Shown: positions 5,095 to 44,507 of the stretch, piece by piece
Position numbering within the stretch: the first letter of the stretch is position 1
Layout: the number at the start of each line of letters is the position of its first letter
Assembly: GCF_988242995.1 (NCBI RefSeq)
Contig: NZ_OZ547043.1
Reading direction: 5' to 3' (one strand)
Length of the DNA stretch: 64,000 bases
Made by a program: the position numbers and the translations under genes
The notes under the pieces: generated by a model
Database searches by the model: none
What the model saw: only the letters and a program-made list of their open reading frames with translations
Told to the model about the DNA's origin: nothing

Positions 5095-5170
5095 TCCTCT
5101 GTAGTTCAGTCGGTAGAACGGCGGACTGTTAATCCGTATGTCACTGGTTCGAGTCCAGTCAGAGGAGCCA
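5095..5170 (+). tRNA. asnU: tRNA-Asn
   Basis: TCCTCTGTAGTTCAGTCGGTAGAACGGCGGACTGTTAATCCGTATGTCACTGGTTCGAGTCCAGTCAGAGGAGCCA, GTT anticodon loop. Confidence 0.95.
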
Positions 5171-5180
5171 AATTTCTGAA

Positions 5181-5207
5181 AAGCCCGCTTTTATAGCGGG
5201 CTTTTTG
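5181..5207 (+). terminator. rho-independent terminator after asnU
   Basis: aagcccgct ... agcgggctt hairpin followed by TTTTT. Confidence 0.6.
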
Positions 5208-6158
5208 CTATATCTGATAATCAATTTCCTCTTCACTGTTTTCCATCACCTGCCGCTTGATATCCTCAACTGAAAGTCCTGCATTACAAAGTTCCAGAAA
5301 GCGCCAGACATAGTTACGCTGAAGTTGCCCTCGCTTGAGTCCCAACCAGACAGTATTAGCATCGAAAAGATGCCGCGTATCCAGGCGGATTAAATTCTTT
5401 TCCTCTTGTTCACCGCTGGATTGTTCGGCAACTAATCCGATCCCCAGCCCAAGAGCAACATAGGTTTTAATGACATCAGAATCCTGCGCACTTAATACAA
5501 TATCTGCCAGCAAACCTTTGCGGGCAAATGCGTCATCAATACGTGAGCGCCCCGTAATCCCCTGTCGGTAAGTGATTAACGGCCACTTCGCTATTGATTC
5601 CAGCGTCAATGGTGTAATTTGCGTCAAGGGATGATCGAGTGGAACAAGCAAACTATGGTGCCAACGAAACCACGGGAAGGCGACGAGCTGCGGGTCATTA
5701 CTCAAACGCTCGCTGGCGATACCAATATCAGCTTCGCCATTTTGCAACAACGTCGCAATTTCCTGTGGCGTCCCCTGGATTAGCTCGAGCCGAACCTCCG
5801 GGAAAAGTTCGCGAAAAGCTTTAATGACCCCTGGCAAGCTATAACGCGCCTGAGTATGCGTCGTTGCAATAGTGAGAACGCCAGACGTATCGTTGGTAAA
5901 CAGGTCTGCAAGCCGACGAACATTACTGGCTTCATTCAGAATACGTTCTGCAATGACCAGTAATGCTTTGCCCGGTTCAGTCATGCCCAGCAGTCGCTTA
6001 CCTCGTCGAACAAATATTTCGATGCCAAGTTCATCCTCCAGTTCCCGAATATGACGGCTGACGCCTGACTGTGAGGTAAAAAGCATATTCGCAACCTCTG
6101 TCAGGTTGTAATCCTGACGTGCAGCTTCGCGGATTATCTTTAGTTGTTGGAAATTCAC
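5208..6158 (-). CDS. cbl: LysR-family regulator Cbl (CysB-like)
   Basis: 316 aa; N-terminal LysR HTH MNFQQLKIIREAARQDYNLTEVANMLFTSQSGVSRHIRELE. Confidence 0.9.
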   Translation of the reverse strand: MNFQQLKIIREAARQDYNLTEVANMLFTSQSGVSRHIRELEDELGIEIFVRRGKRLLGMTEPGKALLVIAERILNEASNVRRLADLFTNDTSGVLTIATTHTQARYSLPGVIKAFRELFPEVRLELIQGTPQEIATLLQNGEADIGIASERLSNDPQLVAFPWFRWHHSLLVPLDHPLTQITPLTLESIAKWPLITYRQGITGRSRIDDAFARKGLLADIVLSAQDSDVIKTYVALGLGIGLVAEQSSGEQEEKNLIRLDTRHLFDANTVWLGLKRGQLQRNYVWRFLELCNAGLSVEDIKRQVMENSEEEIDYQI

Positions 6159-9723: not shown

Positions 9724-10467
9724 TTATAGCAGTGCCAGCAGGAAGACCAGTTCACCAAGCTCTATGGCTGCTCCCAGCGTATCGCCCGTTTGCCCGCCCA
9801 GCGTACGTTTGAGAAGCTGACCGAGGATGAAAATCGCCACCATCGTCACCACCATAGCAGCCACACCATGCATACCCGGCAATAATACGGCAGCAAAAAT
9901 AGCGGCTAAGCCGAGTGTGACGCAGGTTTGTCGCCCATCAATTTTGCCAATGAACACATTGCCAAGCCCTTCTTCCCGCGCATAACGATGACGATACATC
10001 AATAATGCGGCAGTCCCGCGGCTGACCGCACATGCTGCCGCCAGCGATGCAAGGATCGATTCGCCACGCAGAGCCAACTCGCTTAACACCAGAATCTTTG
10101 CCAGTACCACAAAAATCAATGCCAGACCGCCGTGGGTGCCTAAACGGCTATCACGCATGATTTCCAACATGCGATCGCGGCTACGTGCAGAAAATACGCC
10201 ATCACAGGTATCAGCGAGGCCGTCCAGATGGAATCCCCCGGTCATCAGCACCAGCACAAGCACGCTAAACAGTGCCGCCAGTGGTGCGCCACACCATGCC
10301 TGCAGCACCATGAAGACCAGCCCGCTAATCGCGCCAAGCAATAATCCAATCAAAGGAAAAGTAATAATACCGCGAGAATAATGCTCGAAATCCAGTCCCT
10401 GGGACCAGCGACGCGGTACAGGCAGACGCGTAATAAATGAGAGCATCGCCCAAAATAATTTACTCAT
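9724..10467 (-). CDS. cobS: cobalamin (5'-phosphate) synthase
   Basis: ORF 9724..10503; start at [18 protein letters not shown]; polytopic membrane protein; overlaps cobU stop. Confidence 0.85.
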
Positions 10468-11009
10468 TTGATTTTTACTCCAATACCAGAAACCACCAGC
10501 CATACTTCATTTGCCGCAGCGGCCAACTGCTGATTTACCCGCCCGGCAATATCACGAAAATGTCGTGCCAGACGACTCTCCGGCACAATCCCCATTCCCA
10601 CTTCGTTAGTCACTAATACAACCTTTGCGGGGCAACGTTGGCAGGCAGCAATCAACGACTGAATCTCAGCATTAATCGCCTGTTCCATCGCCTGATAATC
10701 CCATTCATCAGGGTCTTTATCGCCGCCATAATCAAACAACAGATTAGTCACCATTGTGGTAACGCATTCCAGCAACACAACCTCATTCGGGTTAATGTCT
10801 GCATGAATTAATTCATCAAGATGTTGCCAGCGCTCCACTGTGCGCCAGTGCTCCGGGCGGCCTTGCCGATGATGTTCTATCCGTGCAGCCATCTCATCAT
10901 CAAGGATTTGCGAGGTAGCGATATACAGAACCTGTGAAGAGTCCCCAATAAGCGCCTCTGCGTGGCGACTCTTCCCGCTCCGTGCGCCCCCCGTCACCAA
11001 AATCATCAT
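10464..11009 (-). CDS. cobU: adenosylcobinamide kinase/adenosylcobinamide-phosphate guanylyltransferase
   Basis: 181 aa with P-loop GGARSGKS. Confidence 0.9.
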
Positions 11010-12779
11010 ACCGACTCCTGATTCAAATGTATGATGGTATTCATTGAACAGAACAATGGATCCCCCACCGTTGCTGACCGCAAAACATTTACGCGATTAA
11101 TACTGCGCGTAATATAATTAAAAATCCAGCATTCTCAATCCATTACGAAATAAGATGGCATTACGGAATAGCCAGACTTTCTCGTGTTAACGTCCGACAA
11201 AATGCGTCATTGACAGCGGTTTCTGTGGATTGACACATTTCATTCAGATAATGAATTAATGCTACTGCCGGACCAACCAGCAAACGGGCATTGTGTTCTG
11301 AAATCCAGGCTATTGATTCAACGTCAGCGACAGATCTGCGCTGTAAAAGAACTTGTAAAACAACGCAATAGAATTATCCGGAATGGTGGCGACTATGCAC
11401 TAGAACACCACAATTTCGCTCTCTCGGTAAGGCACTGTCACAGCATTCAACAGAATGTGACTTGCCAGATTTATTAGCGCCACCAGATGTTTAACCGGGT
11501 AACCACGACCCAGTCGGGGATATATTCCATCTTCTCGCTGACATCATCAAGAATAAAAAGGTTTATCACACTCAGAGCAACGTTCTTCAGCAGGCGGGAT
11601 AATTCTTCAACATTTAGAAGATGTGTTATTAAAGGCATACAAACTGGACGTATTGTATTTTCTTTTGGTGGTTGACCTAAGGTAGCAGTTTATCCTGATG
11701 CGCTGAGATTTCTGTAATATCTACGTCAACATTCTCCTCGAATAGAAAATGCAGCCCCGGCAAGTGATTCACATTTTTTAACAAAACGTTGTTAGCGTGC
11801 CATTTTCAGAAGCTCTCCAAGAAAGCGAATTCTTTTCTCAAATTCTGCATTCTCAGACACAGCTTTCTACTCCATGGCAATGGCCCAAATACGAAGTTGC
11901 TCAGGATCATTAGTGGTGCTGAGAAGTTAAATAACCATGCGGAGTACCACTCGTCATCACGTATTTATATATCATGAAGCTATTGTTGTGTTTTGTACAT
12001 CAGTAGATGTATTCTGATATACTCCTTTTGCTAGACATAACCTTTCACCTGCTTGCAAAGCTTCTGTGTTCTGACATTGCCAAATTGTTGCAATTCTGTA
12101 TCCAGCCTTCTTTCAGTCATAGCTTCGGGCCGCGATAAGACTCACTGATCTGACCCTGATTCCTCTTGCAGACTTTATAGACCAATTAAAATGCAGTTTC
12201 TGCAGGTCAACGTCTGACCATCATTGTCATCACTCTGGCCATTAGAGTAACCTTCTGCATTCATCCTTTTGTAAAAAGTTTATAGACTGGCCCCCTGAAT
12301 CTCCAGACAACCAATATCACTTAAATAAGTGATAGTCCTGATACAAGTTTTTAGAGTAGTCATTAGTGAACAGATAATTGTTAACTTAGAACCAGTAAAA
12401 TGCAAACGACGCACCACGCTGGGAAAATCGCTGCTATTCAGCAGAGTTTTGTACCGAGAATTGTGGCCAGCCACTTATTGCTCTCGCGTAAGCAGGTATC
12501 CCCATCGTTTACCAGTCCAGCACATCTTGTGGTCAGGCAGAAGAAGAGCAAACTGTTACTGGACTCACTGCATGCATGGTGGAGAAAAATGCCACGCTAT
12601 CCAAAAATCCAGACTGGGAGAATGGTTCAGCTGTGTACTGAATCAGTGGGGCGCACTCTGTTATTACAGTGTTGACGGTCAGGCGGAGGCAGACATAATG
12701 CCGCGGAAAAAGCCCTTTGTGCCATCTGTCTCGGAAATAAAAACTCTTATGACCTTTGTCAAATATTGAGCCCAAAAAG

Positions 12780-14186
12780 ACCTTACGCAGCTCCGGGAGC
12801 TTCGTTATATCGCGGATTAAAGAACCTGAAACAGTCAGACTGTATCTTGGATTTTACAAACTCTTATTCGGGGATTTTAGCCCCATGACGATTTACGCAG
12901 TGAGCTGGCCTCTTTCTATATGCAGGTATTGGCGCATTCTGACCTCCTGAATTCTTTTACGAGGATCACTCATTCCGTGTCTGACTGCTTCAGGGTTTAA
13001 TTTTGCTTCTGCTGACTGAATGATGATTGGGCAGCAAGTGCAATATCCCACATAAATCCAGTCAACTCACGAGCCACCGCCGTAATGGCTACTTGTGATT
13101 TTTTCCCTTTTGCTGTCAGACTTCGGTAACGAGAACACAATCGTTGTTGAGCTTTCCATGCAATATCTTTGGAATATTGTGTTACAGAATCCGGTCGGTA
13201 ATATATAAGCCATGCACCAACTTTTGCAGGTGTACGATAAGACCAGGCGGCTTCGTAAAGCAGACGTCTCAGTTCGCTGTTTCCAACTTTTGTTATTCCC
13301 CTGGGACGAATGCTGTTTCCACTGGAATATTCCCCTGGAACCAGTCCCAGAAAAGCCATGAGTTGTTTGGGACTGGAAAATCGTGAAAAATCACCCAGTT
13401 CAGCAACCAGGGTTATTGCGGTTAGCTGACCAACACCTTTAAGGGCCTGTAACTGGCAGACCAGATTGCACAGAGACCACTCAGGTAACAGGCGGGATAT
13501 TTCCTGGTCGAGTTGAAGTATGCGATCTTCAATCTGCTCCAGACTCTGACAATAGTGTTGAAAAGCAATCTGTTGAGATGGCTGACTAAATGATTGATTG
13601 GCTAACCAGGTTCGATGTTTGCCGGTCCAGTGCTTCCCTGCATAACGTTTGTCTGTTCGCAATAGCATGCTCAGAATTCGCTGTCGGGCAACTCTGCTGT
13701 CTCGTTTAGCTGCTGCACGGGCTCTGATTAGATCCCGCATAGCTTCATGAGTCAGGTCAGGGATCCAGACAGGGGTAAGTTCACCAGCCCGCAGTAACCT
13801 GGCAAGAGAAATTGCGTCCCGATGATCATTTTTGATTCTGTCTGTCGGTGATTTTGGTATCCGGGAAGGGGCAATAACCTGGCATTTTATATTCATCGCT
13901 GTGAGTTGATGATATAGCCCAAAACCACAGGGGCCAGCCTCATAGCAGGAAAGAATGTTTCCGTAAAGTCCCTGCAATTTCTGAAATAATCGACGTACAG
14001 CCTGGGCTTCGTTGTTAATCGTACCATAATAACGAACTTCGCCAAGCCGTTCAGGTGCAGCAATAGCAACCGCCAACGTTTCTTTATGTACATCCAGCCC
14101 GATGTAAGCTGCAATATTTTCCGAATGCATAATGACCTCCTCTGGAATATCCCACCAATGCTATAGTGAGTATATAAAGGTCATAC
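12780..14186 (-). mobile_element. IS110-family insertion sequence (boundaries approximate, 3' end not determinable by eye)
   Basis: Transposase 12997..14130; upstream end abuts a truncated IS66 tnpC remnant at about 14187; no terminal inverted repeats expected for this family. Confidence 0.4.
12997..14130 (-). CDS. IS110-family transposase (DEDD/RuvC-like)
   Basis: 377 aa; N-terminal YIGLDVHKETLAVAI motif typical of IS110-family transposases; RBS GAGGAGG upstream. Confidence 0.8.
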   Translation of the reverse strand: MHSENIAAYIGLDVHKETLAVAIAAPERLGEVRYYGTINNEAQAVRRLFQKLQGLYGNILSCYEAGPCGFGLYHQLTAMNIKCQVIAPSRIPKSPTDRIKNDHRDAISLARLLRAGELTPVWIPDLTHEAMRDLIRARAAAKRDSRVARQRILSMLLRTDKRYAGKHWTGKHRTWLANQSFSQPSQQIAFQHYCQSLEQIEDRILQLDQEISRLLPEWSLCNLVCQLQALKGVGQLTAITLVAELGDFSRFSSPKQLMAFLGLVPGEYSSGNSIRPRGITKVGNSELRRLLYEAAWSYRTPAKVGAWLIYYRPDSVTQYSKDIAWKAQQRLCSRYRSLTAKGKKSQVAITAVARELTGFMWDIALAAQSSFSQQKQN

Positions 14187-14189
14187 CAT

Positions 14190-14412
14190 CTTTATGTTCT
14201 TCGGCGGCGAGCGCAGTGCACTGTTGTATGGGCTTATCGGCACCTGCCGTCTGAACGACATTGATCCGGAAGCGTATCTGCGCCATATCCTGAGCGTACT
14301 GCCGGAATAACCTTCCAACCGTATTGATGAACTCCTGCCATGGAACGTAGTTCTCACCAATAAATAAGCATCAATATGATTCTCCATTAACGCTTACCTT
14401 TTCTCAGGCTAT
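14190..14412 (+). mobile_element. truncated IS66-family 3' end (tnpC C-terminal remnant plus terminal repeat), diverged
   Basis: Translates to FFGGERSALLYGLIGTCRLNDIDPEAYLRHILSVLPE and PSNRIDELLPWNVVLTNK, matching the C-terminus of TnpC at 23289..24902; ends with degenerate IS66 terminal repeat ...cgcttac. Confidence 0.6.
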
Positions 14413-14505
14413 TTTTGCTTTTTTTTGCTTTTCCCCGCCACTTTATGGTGATTATCACATCAATATACATCGATAGATATTAACGTAACTGCAGTGAGGT
14501 GAAGC

Positions 14506-15720
14506 ATGAAATTTGAACGCCATCATGAAATATTGAAACGACTCAGTAAATTCGGTTCTGTAAAAGTATCCGATCTGTCCAATAGCCTCAATGTAACGAA
14601 AGAAACTATTCGTTCAGATCTTAATGAACTTGCCAGGCTTGGCTATCTGACTCGATGTCATGGCGGTGCTTTTATCGTCCTAGACTCGCTTGATACTATT
14701 GCGAAAAATGAAATCGCTTATGCGCTTGAAAATTATGATACAGCCCAGGGAATAAAAAAAGGCCACTCAACTATGAAAAGTCAAGTATGCGTTATTGGTT
14801 CGTTTAATGTTGATATCATCAGTTATTTGCCGAGGCTTCCCACTATCGGAGAATCGCTTCTGGCAAGTAATTTTATATTTTCACCGGGGGGAAAAGACTG
14901 TAACCAGGCGCTGGCAGCAAGCTTTGCCGATACTGATGTTTATTTCATAACAAAAGTAGGTACAGATCACTTTAGTGATTATGCGATCAACTTTATGAAT
15001 TCGTCTAAGATTTATAAAAGTATAATTTATCAAACGAAAGAAACGCAAACCGAAACTGCCACGATCCTTGTTAATGAAGGTACTGGCGATAATGTTATTG
15101 CGATCTATCCCGGTGCCAACATGACAATGTCGCCCGATGAAATAACTATTCAGAAAGAAGCGATTATTAATTCTGATGTCATACTTCTGCAGCTCGAAAC
15201 AAATTATACCGCTCTGCAACAAGCGATCACATTGGCGCAAAAAAACAGTATCCCGGTCATTATTAACCCGGCACCCTATAATGATATCGTCAACGAACTT
15301 ATTCAGGATGTTGATTATATCACCCCCAATGAAACAGAAGCTGGTTTACTGTCCGGCATAGACGTACACGATCTTGAATCAGCTAAACGAGCTGCAGAAG
15401 CTATCCACAATAAAGGGGTAAAAAACACGGTTATCACGCTCGGTAGCAAGGGCTCGCTCGCATTTGATGGCAAAAAATTCATTCATTCGCCAGCGTTTCC
15501 AGCGGTCGTTAAAAATACGGCAGGAGCCGGGGATGCGTTTAACGGCTCTCTGGCATCAGGACTTGCGAAAGGAAAATCACTGGAATCAGCACTGTGTTAT
15601 GCCAGCGCCTTTGCATCCCTAGCGGTGGAGACAAGCAATGCTTCCGACATGCCTGAACATGAATCTGTGATACATCGAATTCAGAGTATACATTATCAGC
15701 AAACTATTTTTACGCATTAA
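14506..15720 (+). CDS. DeoR-type HTH domain fused to PfkB/ribokinase-family carbohydrate kinase
   Basis: 404 aa; N-terminal DeoR-like HTH (VKVSDLSNSLNVTKETIRSDLNELARLGYLTRCHGGA) then PfkB body with GAGDAF signature near C-terminus. Confidence 0.7.
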   Translation: MKFERHHEILKRLSKFGSVKVSDLSNSLNVTKETIRSDLNELARLGYLTRCHGGAFIVLDSLDTIAKNEIAYALENYDTAQGIKKGHSTMKSQVCVIGSFNVDIISYLPRLPTIGESLLASNFIFSPGGKDCNQALAASFADTDVYFITKVGTDHFSDYAINFMNSSKIYKSIIYQTKETQTETATILVNEGTGDNVIAIYPGANMTMSPDEITIQKEAIINSDVILLQLETNYTALQQAITLAQKNSIPVIINPAPYNDIVNELIQDVDYITPNETEAGLLSGIDVHDLESAKRAAEAIHNKGVKNTVITLGSKGSLAFDGKKFIHSPAFPAVVKNTAGAGDAFNGSLASGLAKGKSLESALCYASAFASLAVETSNASDMPEHESVIHRIQSIHYQQTIFTH

Positions 15721-44253: not shown

Positions 44254-44507
44254 TGCTTTTCCGGCAACAAGCAGGAATCTCAGTGCTGAAGCAGGAATTA
44301 GAGGTAAAAACGCCCTACCGGGCCATGAATCACCCGGTCATTGGAGTAGTAACCAAAGCAGATTTAGCCAGCATGGAACAAATATCTTTGGTGAAAAGTT
44401 GGTTACGGGAAGCTGGAGCGCACAACGTGTTAGTAACCAGTGCAGTTAATAACAATGGAGTTACAGAACTTTTTGCCTTGCTGCATACAGAAGAAGGCTG
44501 TTGTTAA
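44254..44507 (+). pseudogene. C-terminal fragment of a EutP/PduV-like GTPase gene (yoeF-like remnant)
   Basis: Encodes ...NHPVIGVVTKADLASMEQISLVKSWLREAGAHNVLVTSAVNNNGVTELFALLHTEEGCC; 5' part replaced by the IS66 fragment. Confidence 0.4.

What the first reader, a model, noticed from the sequence alone, without database searches (positions are those of the whole stretch)
11010..12996. About 2 kb degraded, ORF-poor segment downstream of cobU
Only short ORFs with no recognisable products between cobU and the IS110-family transposase; in K-12 this position carries pseudogene remnants (yoeG/yoeH/yoeA region, from memory). Marks the backbone-island junction.
Basis: partly seen in the sequence, partly recalled or inferred. 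Interest (0 to 1): 0.25.

Follow-up and report, generated by a model that had tools for sequence, protein, structure and literature searches.

The report
IS graveyard beside cobU, plus ISEc45
The roughly 2 kb next to cobU is an ordinary, largely already-annotated pile of broken insertion-sequence fragments at the edge of a variable E. coli island, except for its last 251 bases, which are the intact guide-RNA-encoding end of a live IS110/IS1111-family element (ISEc45).

Summary
It is not unrecognisable. Reading upward from cobU (minus strand), it holds:
- the cobU leader;
- the last 144 bp of a 145-aa CbiG-N-like "cobalamin biosynthesis" gene, which is intact in pdu+ E. coli;
- the backbone/island breakpoint at 11305/11306;
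- an IS4-family fragment;
- an IS66 tnpB-3'/tnpC-5' fragment, which together with the IS4 piece is K-12 yeeH+yoeG, here without K-12's IS5H;
- 226 bp that I could not assign;
- an IS2-like left end;
- an IS66 tnpC-3' fragment.

ISEc45 (12746-14189) splits that last fragment. K-12 yoeH and yoeA are absent, and no outer-membrane receptor fragment is present.

The final 251 bp of the finding (12746-12996) belong to intact ISEc45. They fold into an RNA supported by covariation. A 7-nt block in that RNA tracks the left flank of each insertion across relatives. ISEc45 always sits in the same conserved motif of IS66 tnpC.

The block 11306-12282 is at least 99% identical in 4033 of 5426 complete E. 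coli genomes. Everything belongs to known kinds, so interest is low.

The parts
10464..11009 (-). cobU (context; the finding starts at its start codon)
   Evidence: ORF of 181 aa. RefSeq annotates cobU in 100%-identical genomes.
11010..11160 (-). cobU 5' leader/intergenic DNA, conserved backbone. A sigma-70-like site runs 11138->11111 (TTGAGA-16-TATATT).
   Evidence: 97.6% identical over window 10410-11197 to island-free strain C21. About 93% identical to pdu+ E. coli. The promoter-like match comes, where the number of sites was no higher than in shuffles, so this is an inference only.
11161..11304 (-). 3' remnant (about 47 codons, with a premature stop and a 3-codon deletion) of a 145-aa 'cobalamin biosynthesis protein' that resembles the CbiG N-terminal part
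   Evidence: PGAP marks it as a pseudogene. It aligns to the intact 145-aa ORF of NZ_CP027351.1. That ORF hits NF004463, cobalt-precorrin-5A hydrolase, positions 1-125 of 351, E=1.6e-19. Intact 144-145-aa homologues occur in E. albertii, E. marmotae and other Escherichia.
11305..11312 (.). Backbone/island breakpoint (11305/11306)
   Evidence: The alignment with the pdu+ strain loses all similarity after 11305. The megablast match to those strains stops at query position 296, which is window 11305.
11313..11501 (-). Internal fragment of an IS4-family transposase gene with an in-frame stop (K-12 yeeH plus the 3' end of yoeG). It contains the unoccupied IS5H target CTAG at 11400-11403.
   Evidence: PGAP annotation. 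NF033592 transpos_IS4_1, profile positions 134-191 of 332, E=5.3e-5. The K-12 alignment breaks exactly where IS5H sits, with a 4-bp overlap.
11495..11938 (-). IS66-family tnpC 5' fragment (TnpC aa 1-151, with stops), which is the bulk of K-12 yoeG. The 54-aa 'hypothetical protein' ORF at 11474-11638 is an in-frame piece of it.
   Evidence: tblastn with a plasmid IS66 TnpC gives 47% identity, E=1e-23. DNA is about 71% identical to many plasmid IS66 copies. The 54-aa ORF has no family hit.
11981..12056 (-). IS66 tnpB 3' end (last 18 codons at 11981-12034). DNA homology with IS66 elements continues to about 12056.
12057..12282 (.). Unassigned 226 bp, shared with K-12 up to 12284
   Evidence: No hit to Pfam or NCBIfam, to IS66 or IS2 proteins, to Rfam, or to phages. 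Plasmids gave nothing beyond near-identical copies. 99.8% identical to K-12.
12283..12498 (+). IS2-like (IS3-family) left end: a terminal inverted repeat starting TAGACTGGCCCCCTGAATCTCCAGACAACC, followed by a decayed insC/orfA start
   Evidence: 83% identical to IS2F positions 1-175 and 90% to positions 218-246. 88.7% identical to a second IS2-like remnant next to K-12 yeeP. InsC aa 18-52 gives a weak tblastn hit.
12531..12745 (+). IS66-family tnpC 3' fragment, left half (remnant B), ending at the ISEc45 insertion point
   Evidence: 71% DNA identity to the intact ISEc43 copy at window 23697-23479. TnpC aa 421-458 hits by tblastn. PGAP calls it an IS66 fragment. It is contiguous with 14190 onward in genomes lacking ISEc45.
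12746..12996 (-). ISEc45 right end: a 251-nt non-coding region downstream of the transposase gene, with the subterminal IR TATGACCTTT at 12748-12757
   Evidence: Limits come from the empty site in NZ_CM169472.1 and from four independent insertions. The subterminal IR is shown. Durrant et al. 2024 supplementary data list ISEc45 as IS1111 group with the bridge RNA in the RE.
12825..12994 (-). Structured RNA core of the ISEc45 non-coding region (closing stem 12825-12840 with 12979-12994). The candidate left-target guide is at 12916-12922 (CAUAUAG on the minus strand). The candidate left-donor guide is at 12861-12868 (AAUAAGAG).
   Evidence: Inverted repeat I4. RNAalifold and pair counts on 5 sequences: 95.4% of cells paired against 42% or less when partners are slid, and 10 of 52 pairs with compensatory change. 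An unbiased scan of 11,180 column/offset/strand combinations ranks this guide block first.
12997..14130 (-). ISEc45 transposase gene (377 aa, intact), outside the finding but part of the same element
   Evidence: ORF. PF01548 DEDD_Tnp_IS110 E=1.4e-15 and PF02371 Transposase_20 E=1.2e-24. RefSeq WP_000555380.1.
14131..14189 (-). ISEc45 left end (59 bp) with the subterminal IR AAAGGTCATA at 14176-14185 (plus strand)
14190..14400 (+). IS66 remnant B, right half (tnpC 3' end and terminal region). The core CT at 14190-14191 repeats 12744-12745.
   Evidence: 88.8% identical to window 23454-23259. TnpC aa 472-537 shows 79% identity. Empty-site comparison.

Best explanation
The segment is the left edge of the variable island that in most E. 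coli occupies the place of the lost cbi-pdu region between cobU and tmaR(yeeX).

What is shown:
- The backbone ends at 11305, inside the 3' remnant of a small CbiG-N-like gene.
- To the right lie successive, mutually truncated insertion-sequence fragments: IS4 family; IS66 tnpB/tnpC 5' part; an IS2-like left end; IS66 tnpC 3' part.
- None of them keeps a complete coding frame or both of its ends. They are inert fossils, and most of them are shared at 99% identity or more with K-12 (yeeH/yoeG) and with thousands of other genomes.
- The only live component is ISEc45, an IS1111-group DEDD-transposase element at 12746-14189. It is inserted without target duplication at a CT core inside the last IS66 fragment.
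- Its 251-nt non-coding right end makes up the last eighth of the finding.

What is inferred, by analogy with published bridge/seekRNA systems: that end is transcribed into a guide RNA that directs ISEc45 into the conserved G-(K/R)-K-N-(Y/F/W)-x-F-x-G coding motif of IS66-family tnpC genes. A 7-nt loop segment, identical to the left target flank plus the core, would pair with the target's bottom strand. An AAUAAGAG segment in the multiloop would pair with the element's own right end.
For: Locus identity and annotation:
- 100% match to E. coli chromosomes, with PGAP pseudogene calls.
- The K-12 alignment shows yeeH/yoeG and the unoccupied IS5H site.

Fragment identities:
- IS66 fragment A.
- IS4 fragment.
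- IS2-like end.
- IS66 fragment B and the ISEc45 limits, from an empty site.

Ancestral state and island extent:
- cobU, a 145-aa ORF, the B12 riboswitch, pocR and pdu.
- Breakpoint at 11305/11306.
- An island-free strain lacks window 11198-44333.

Spread:
- 11010-11320 is present in 4868 of 5426 genomes.
- 11306-12282 is present in 4033 of 5426 genomes at 99% or more.

ISEc45:
- DEDD and Transposase_20 domains.
- Subterminal IRs and the CT core.
- The same site and orientation in four different IS66 contexts, plus the Enterobacter and Photorhabdus relatives.
- RNA structure with 10 compensatory pairs.
- Guide block compared with the element's own left flank: 7/7 in L009, 6/7 in the window, 6/7 in Enterobacter, 6/7 in Photorhabdus. 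It ranks first of 11,180 combinations.

Literature:
- IS1111 elements carry the guide RNA in the downstream non-coding region (PMC11187229; PMC11208160).
- ISEc45 is listed as 'RE, IS1111'.
Against: - 226 bp (12057-12282) remain unassigned.
- The IS4 call rests on a weak HMM hit (22.5 bits) plus PGAP.
- The link from the window remnant to CbiG is transitive, through the intact 145-aa ORF. The 47-aa window peptide alone hits nothing.
- I could not find a right-target guide or a right-donor guide that includes the core.
- One ISEc45 copy (L010) sits in a CATAAAG site with a CACGTAG guide, only 4/7.
- The structure rests on five sequences from about three lineages.
- Rfam has no matching family.
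- No expression data were available.
Confidence: 0.85

Rival explanations
1. The segment hides an intact, overlooked protein-coding gene. The candidates are the 54-aa ORF at 11474-11638(-), which some RefSeq genomes annotate as a hypothetical protein, and the 146-aa ORF at 12329-12769(+).
For: The ORFs exist. WP_001128468.1 is annotated in several genomes.
Against: The 54-aa ORF lies in frame inside the IS66 TnpC N-terminal fragment and is just a Met-started piece of it. The 146-aa ORF runs across three unrelated fragments (IS2-like, IS66-B, ISEc45), and its end changes in genomes without ISEc45. Neither hits any Pfam or NCBIfam family.
Confidence: 0.03
2. The segment is the decayed end of a prophage (the K-12 label 'cryptic prophage CP4-44') rather than an accumulation of insertion sequences.
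For: K-12 annotates CP4-44 from the equivalent of window ~11265 onward. The island further right carries integrative-element-type genes such as yeeP, cbtA/yeeU-type toxin-antitoxin genes and an Inovirus Gp2-family protein.
Against: Every assignable piece inside the finding is IS-derived. There was no similarity to any of 50,697 phage records for 11980-12300. No integrase, att site or phage structural fragment was found here.
Confidence: 0.08
3. The fossil block persists because it now supplies the promoter or regulatory leader of cobUST, which lost its B12 riboswitch and its original promoter when the region upstream was replaced.
For: In pdu+ strains the riboswitch and the 145-aa ORF precede cobU. 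Here both are gone: Rfam finds no riboswitch in 10000-15000. A sigma-70-like site lies at 11138->11111. The block is 99% or more identical in about 4000 genomes.
Against: The promoter-like count is no higher than in shuffled sequence. The candidate promoter lies in backbone DNA, not in the IS fossils. Identity of 99% is ordinary for E. coli core-linked DNA and needs no selection. The island-free strain keeps cobUST with only 188 bp upstream.
Confidence: 0.1

Closest known systems
E. coli K-12 cobU / CP4-44 junction (pseudogenes yeeH b4639 and yoeG b4640, IS5H)
   Same: Window 10001-11403 and 11400-12284 are 99.6-99.8% identical to K-12 either side of IS5H. The cbi-type remnant, IS4 fragment, IS66 fragment and unassigned block are the same.
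   Different: There is no IS5H here; the CTAG target at 11400-11403 is unoccupied. K-12 yoeH and yoeA::IS2F are absent. Beyond 12284 the window goes straight into the IS2-like remnant, which in K-12 lies next to yeeP. In the window that remnant is 21 kb from the yeeP homologue.
IS1111-group elements with a seekRNA/bridge RNA in the downstream non-coding region (ISEc11, ISKpn4, ISPa11: Siddiquee et al. 2024, PMC11187229; Durrant et al. 2024, PMC11208160)
   Same: A DEDD transposase, subterminal inverted repeats, short left end and long right end, no target duplication, a fixed target and a structured RNA in the right end. The segment identical to the target's top strand lies on the 3' side of a loop. 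The donor-matching nucleotides lie in a multiloop, as reported for many IS1111 members. ISEc45 is listed there as IS1111 group with the RNA in the RE.
   Different: The transposase is 377 aa, longer than the 330-350 aa quoted for typical IS1111 members. The top-strand-pairing guide was not found here.
ISEc21 (IS110 family) targeting a conserved coding motif of IS3-family transposase genes (PMC11187229)
   Same: An IS110-family element whose natural target is a conserved codon block inside another IS family's transposase gene. ISEc45 does the same to IS66 tnpC.
   Different: ISEc21 has its non-coding region upstream and lacks long subterminal IRs. The victim IS family is different.
Salmonella-type cbi-cob-pdu region and its loss in E. 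coli (Lawrence and Roth, from my own knowledge; not read here)
   Same: cobUST is retained alone, with scars of neighbouring cobalamin and pdu genes: a cbi-type remnant at 11161-11304 and a pduV 3' remnant from 44334.
   Different: About 840 records in the E. coli collection still carry pdu, pocR, the riboswitch and an intact 145-aa CbiG-N-like ORF next to cobU. The remnant is therefore not a cbiP tail, which was my first guess.

Membership tests
IS110/IS1111 family element with guide (bridge/seek) RNA, applied to 12746-14189 | DEDD (RuvC-like) N-terminal domain and a Transposase_20 C-terminal domain in one intact protein | tested here: met
   PF01548 E=1.4e-15 and PF02371 E=1.2e-24 on the 377-aa ORF.
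IS110/IS1111 family element with guide (bridge/seek) RNA, applied to 12746-14189 | Subterminal inverted repeats of 7-17 bp (IS1111 group) | tested here: met
   TATGACCTTT at 12748-12757 and its complement at 14176-14185. They are conserved in all relatives that retain the corresponding end; the Photorhabdus left-end copy is diverged and the Trabulsiella left end is lost.
IS110/IS1111 family element with guide (bridge/seek) RNA, applied to 12746-14189 | Insertion without target-site duplication, with a shared core dinucleotide on both sides | tested here: met
   The empty site reads AAAA-CT-TTATG. The occupied site has CT at 12744-12745 and at 14190-14191.
IS110/IS1111 family element with guide (bridge/seek) RNA, applied to 12746-14189 | Long non-coding region downstream of tnp (IS1111 group) and a short left end | tested here: met
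   Right end 251 nt, left end 59 nt. The published catalogue agrees.
IS110/IS1111 family element with guide (bridge/seek) RNA, applied to 12746-14189 | One specific target sequence | tested here: met
   The same position and orientation in IS66 tnpC in the window, L009, L010, L011 and L016, and in the Enterobacter and Photorhabdus relatives. Only a handful of sites were inspected.
IS110/IS1111 family element with guide (bridge/seek) RNA, applied to 12746-14189 | Conserved RNA secondary structure in the non-coding region | tested here: met
   95.4% of cells paired, 10 of 52 pairs compensatory, and slid controls at 42% or less. Only five sequences.
IS110/IS1111 family element with guide (bridge/seek) RNA, applied to 12746-14189 | Loop segments complementary to both strands of the target and of the donor | tested here: inconclusive
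   The bottom-strand target guide was found and covaries with the flank. A donor-left match, AAUAAGAG, was found. The guides that pair with the top strand and include the core were not identified.
IS110/IS1111 family element with guide (bridge/seek) RNA, applied to 12746-14189 | The RNA is expressed, binds the transposase and is required for transposition | not testable with these tools
   Needs RNA-seq or RIP and transposition assays.
IS66 family (fragments 11495-12056 and 12531-12745 plus 14190-14400) | Homology to TnpC / TnpB | tested here: met
   TnpC aa 1-151 at 47% identity, E=1e-23. TnpC aa 472-537 at 79% identity. The TnpB tail also matches. DNA identity is 71-89%.
IS66 family (fragments 11495-12056 and 12531-12745 plus 14190-14400) | Complete tnpA-tnpB-tnpC with terminal IRs and an 8-bp duplication (that is, a functional element) | tested here: not met
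   Only partial, stop-ridden pieces remain, in opposite orientations. They are fragments, not elements.
IS4 family (fragment 11313-11501) | Match to an IS4 DDE transposase profile | tested here: inconclusive
   NF033592 gives E=5.3e-5 and 22.5 bits against a cut-off of 115, over 58 residues with an internal stop. PGAP makes the same call.
IS2 / IS3 family (fragment 12283-12498) | IS2 terminal inverted repeat and the start of orfA | tested here: met
   83-90% DNA identity to IS2F positions 1-246, starting exactly at the IS2 terminus. The reading frame is broken.
CbiG (cobalt-precorrin-5A hydrolase) N-terminal region (remnant 11161-11304) | Profile match to CbiG | tested here: inconclusive
   The intact 145-aa homologue matches NF004463 positions 1-125 of 351, E=1.6e-19 and 70 bits, far below the equivalog cut-off of 546. 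The window's 47-aa remnant alone gives no hit. There is no PDB relative by sequence.
K-12 pseudogenes yoeH / yoeA (TonB-dependent receptor fragment) | Sequence similarity to K-12 2068261-2070474 | tested here: not met
   No blastn match anywhere in the 64-kb window.

The most novel reading that the evidence does not exclude
ISEc45 and its relatives are dedicated, RNA-guided 'hunters' of IS66-family transposase genes. Their 7-nt left-target guide (window 12916-12922) is naturally re-written to follow different tnpC alleles: CACGUAG, CAUAUAG, CAGGUAG, CAGCCAG. The copy in this window carries a two-base guide variant (CG to UA) that fits the degenerate IS66 allele it occupies (CATAAAG). If so, natural guide reprogramming is visible within a single E. 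coli IS.
Probability: 0.5. Interest if true: 0.35.

Novelty: already known. Interest (0 to 1): 0.15.

Why it matters
It matters little for biology at large.

- The segment documents, at base resolution, how the cobU-tmaR locus of E. coli was rebuilt: loss of the pdu genes and part of a small cbi-type gene, followed by layered IS insertions and truncations.
- It corrects two annotation habits. K-12 yeeH and yoeG are an IS4 fragment and an IS66 TnpC N-terminus split by IS5H. The 'cobalamin biosynthesis protein' stub is the tail of a CbiG-N-like ORF, not of cbiP.
- The one point of wider use is a reminder that the 'non-coding' DNA next to an IS110/IS1111 transposase gene belongs to the element and probably encodes its guide RNA. 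Here that gives a natural example of an IS that targets a conserved motif of another IS family.

Tried and rejected
- Rfam at E<=1 on 10000-15000: nothing, so no riboswitch, sRNA or catalogued bridge-RNA family.
- Pfam on stop-bridged six-frame translations of the whole segment: nothing. Short fragments and X residues defeat the filters.
- Pfam and NCBIfam on individual peptides: only the IS4 hit.
- Word-indexed protein search with the 47-aa cbi remnant: it returned only E. coli fragments carrying the same circular name. My first guess, a cbiP tail, was dropped after the 145-aa homologue matched CbiG-N.
- Search for yoeH, yoeA or an outer-membrane receptor: absent.
- Phage similarity for 11980-12300: none.
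- Exact and one-mismatch searches for ISEc45 guides in a single sequence: ambiguous. They became informative only after relatives were added.
- The idea that the 3' tail after the closing stem mimics the right target flank: own-versus-other alignment scores do not separate, so it was rejected.
- Right-target and right-donor guides: not identified. The loop's 5' side is identical in the Enterobacter and Photorhabdus relatives even though their right flanks differ.
- Viral-contig scan for the non-coding-region motif: no hits.
- Promoter and terminator scan: no more sites than in shuffles.
Full report
**Observation.** The window is E. coli chromosome and is 100% identical over 10500-13500 to NZ_CP145634.1 and NZ_CP166713.1. 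cobU is 10464-11009 on the minus strand. The next intact gene is the ISEc45 transposase at 12997-14130, also on the minus strand. Between them the longest ORF is 146 aa and the others are 91 aa or shorter. GC drops to 0.39-0.46, against 0.49-0.55 in cobTSU. The 'ORF-poor, lower-GC' observation therefore holds. Two details do not. The segment lies upstream of cobU in the transcriptional sense. And its content is recognisable.

**Anatomy of the left part.**
- RefSeq annotation of identical genomes places a 'cobalamin biosynthesis protein' 3' fragment at 11161-11304(-). It places an IS4-family fragment at 11313-11501(-), an IS66 fragment at 12526-12744(+) and another IS66 C-terminal fragment at 14203-14310(+).
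- Alignment with K-12 MG1655 shows window 10001-11403 equal to K-12 up to the left end of IS5H (99.6%). Window 11400-12284 equals K-12 from the right end of IS5H (99.8%). The two matches overlap by the 4-bp CTAG at 11400-11403. The window is therefore the unoccupied IS5H site, and K-12's yeeH and yoeG are adjacent pieces of one fossil stretch.
- K-12 homology stops at 12284. yoeH and yoeA have no counterpart anywhere in the 64 kb.
- A distant DNA search against plasmids shows 11496-12056 to be about 71% identical to IS66-family elements, across the tnpB-tnpC junction.
- tblastn places TnpC residues 1-151 at 11938-11495 (47% identity, E=1e-23) and the last 18 TnpB residues at 12034-11981. yoeG is thus mostly an IS66 TnpC N-terminus.
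- The 54-aa 'hypothetical protein' that some genomes annotate at 11474-11638 is an in-frame piece of that N-terminus.
- The peptide under the PGAP IS4 call hits NF033592 weakly (E=5.3e-5).

**Anatomy of the right part.**
- From 12283 the sequence begins exactly with the IS2 terminal repeat. It follows IS2 positions 1-246 at 83-90% identity, with a broken insC-like frame.
- Positions 12531-12745 and 14190-14400 are the two halves of an IS66 tnpC 3' end. They are 71% and 89% identical to the intact ISEc43 copy elsewhere in the window, and TnpC residues 421-458 and 472-537 match them.
- The 146-aa ORF at 12329-12769 crosses three of these unrelated pieces and has no family hit.
- Positions 12057-12282 stay unassigned.

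**The backbone/island junction.**
- About 840 records in the collection match 11010-11305 at only 90-95% identity.
- In one of them (NZ_CP027351.1), cobU is preceded by an intact 145-aa ORF, a cobalamin riboswitch, pocR, pduF and the pdu operon.
- That ORF matches the N-terminal 125 positions of the CbiG profile NF004463 (E=1.6e-19). It has intact 144-145-aa homologues at 68-77% identity in other Escherichia species.
- The window keeps only its last ~47 codons, with a 3-codon deletion and an early stop. Similarity to the pdu+ strain ends at 11305/11306.
- An island-free strain (C21) joins window 11197 directly to window 44334, where a pduV 3' remnant and tmaR follow.
- The junction is old and widespread. 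11010-11320 is present in 4868 of 5426 complete genomes. 11306-12282 is present in 4033 genomes at 99% identity or more.

**ISEc45: limits and target.**
- Genomes with the same locus but no ISEc45 (for example NZ_CM169472.1) give the empty site ...GGAAATAAAAA-CT-TTATGTTCTTCGG.
- The element is 12746-14189 (1444 bp), with the core CT on both sides and no duplication. It has 10-bp subterminal inverted repeats, a 59-bp left end and a 251-bp right end downstream of the transposase gene.
- The transposase has the DEDD and Transposase_20 domains.
- Copies in three other IS66 contexts (L009, L010, L011), a plasmid copy (L016), a 72%-diverged Enterobacter relative (L012) and a Photorhabdus relative (L013) all sit at the same codon position. 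That position is in the tnpC motif L-G-K-K-N-Y-V-F-F-G, or A-K-D-W-L-F-A-G in Photorhabdus. All are antisense to tnpC.

**ISEc45: the non-coding RNA.**
- The five available non-coding regions share a structure with 95.4% of cells paired, against 42% or less when partners are slid. Ten of 52 pairs show compensatory change, five of them in the 15-pair closing stem at 12825-12840 / 12979-12994.
- On the 3' side of the main internal loop, a 7-nt block is the most variable stretch between invariant flanks. In each element it equals the last five bases of its own left flank plus the core.

| Element | Guide block | Left flank + core | Match |
|---|---|---|---|
| L009 | CACGTAG | CACGTAG | 7/7 |
| window | CATATAG | CATAAAG | 6/7 |
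| Enterobacter (L012) | CAGGTAG | CAGGAAG | 6/7 |
| Photorhabdus (L013) | CAGCCAG | AAGCCAG | 6/7 |

- In a scan of all 11,180 column/offset/strand combinations, this block is first both by total identity (25/28) and by own-minus-other score.
- An invariant AAUAAGAG in the multiloop equals the element's right end plus the core (CATAAG+AG).
- This is the arrangement published for IS1111-group seekRNA/bridge RNAs: the RNA sits in the downstream non-coding region, the bottom-strand match lies 3' of the top-strand match, and the donor-binding bases lie in a multiloop (PMC11187229; PMC11208160). The Durrant et al. supplementary data already list ISEc45 as 'RE, IS1111'.

**ISEc45: what I could not establish.**
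- I did not find the top-strand guides.
- One copy (L010) has a guide that fits its site at only 4/7.
- Rfam has no matching family.
- I had no expression data.

**Verdict.** The finding is real but ordinary. It is a species-wide, largely annotated IS graveyard at the cobU edge of the CP4-44-type island. The last 251 bp were wrongly included, because they belong to an intact IS1111-group element and probably encode its guide RNA. Nothing here lies outside known kinds.

Noticed in passing
L015 (NZ_CP027351.1) 5134-5964; window 11161-11304 is the remnant: In pdu+ E. coli a conserved 145-aa ORF resembling only the N-terminal third of CbiG sits between a cobalamin riboswitch and cobU. It is intact in several Escherichia species at 68-77% identity. 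This looks more like a kept gene than a deletion scar. Its function is unknown.
   Followed up: partly
window 11194-11197 and 44334-44337; L008 6185-6188: Island-free strain C21 joins window 11197 to 44334 with a 4-nt overlap, removing 33.1 kb. From 44334 the window carries a pduV 3' remnant followed by tmaR, yeeA, sbmC and dacD. The variable island in this window is therefore about 11306-44333.
   Followed up: partly
window 12296-12498 and 33856-34411: The IS2-like remnant and the yeeP homologue are contiguous in K-12 but 21 kb apart here. The interval carries genes for a PfkB kinase, a glutamine amidotransferase, a DMT transporter (annotated as a pseudogene with an internal stop), a phosphotriesterase-related protein and more IS copies. 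The window island is a K-12 CP4-44-like skeleton with a large extra insert.
   Followed up: partly
window 12934-12948 and 14127-14141: In this ISEc45 copy only, the variable inner hairpin of the non-coding region reads AGGAGGTCAGAATGC on the minus strand. That nearly repeats the transposase ribosome-binding site and start, AGGAGGTCATTATGC. Other ISEc45 copies have GGGAAGCCAGAATGC. I do not know if this means anything.
   Followed up: no
L013 (Photorhabdus australis NZ_JONO01000058.1) 10097-10798: An ISEc45-like element with both ends and the full non-coding RNA region, but with the transposase gene internally deleted after codon ~115. It is a possible non-autonomous derivative, inserted in a different IS66 allele and carrying a matching guide block.
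   Followed up: partly
L009 left junction: In one insertion the left copy of the core reads TT and the right copy CT. This is the pattern expected if the target had AAT-TAC rather than AAC-TAC, and the two core copies derive from target and donor respectively.
   Followed up: no
window 12861-12874 (minus strand GAATAAGAGTTTGT): The donor-matching block continues into a sequence resembling the element's own right junction with the flank (TCATAAG-AG-TTTTT), 11 of 14 identical. In the Photorhabdus relative the block reads AGTCTGT against its flank AGTCTTT. It was second-ranked in the unbiased scan, and its role is unclear.
   Followed up: partly
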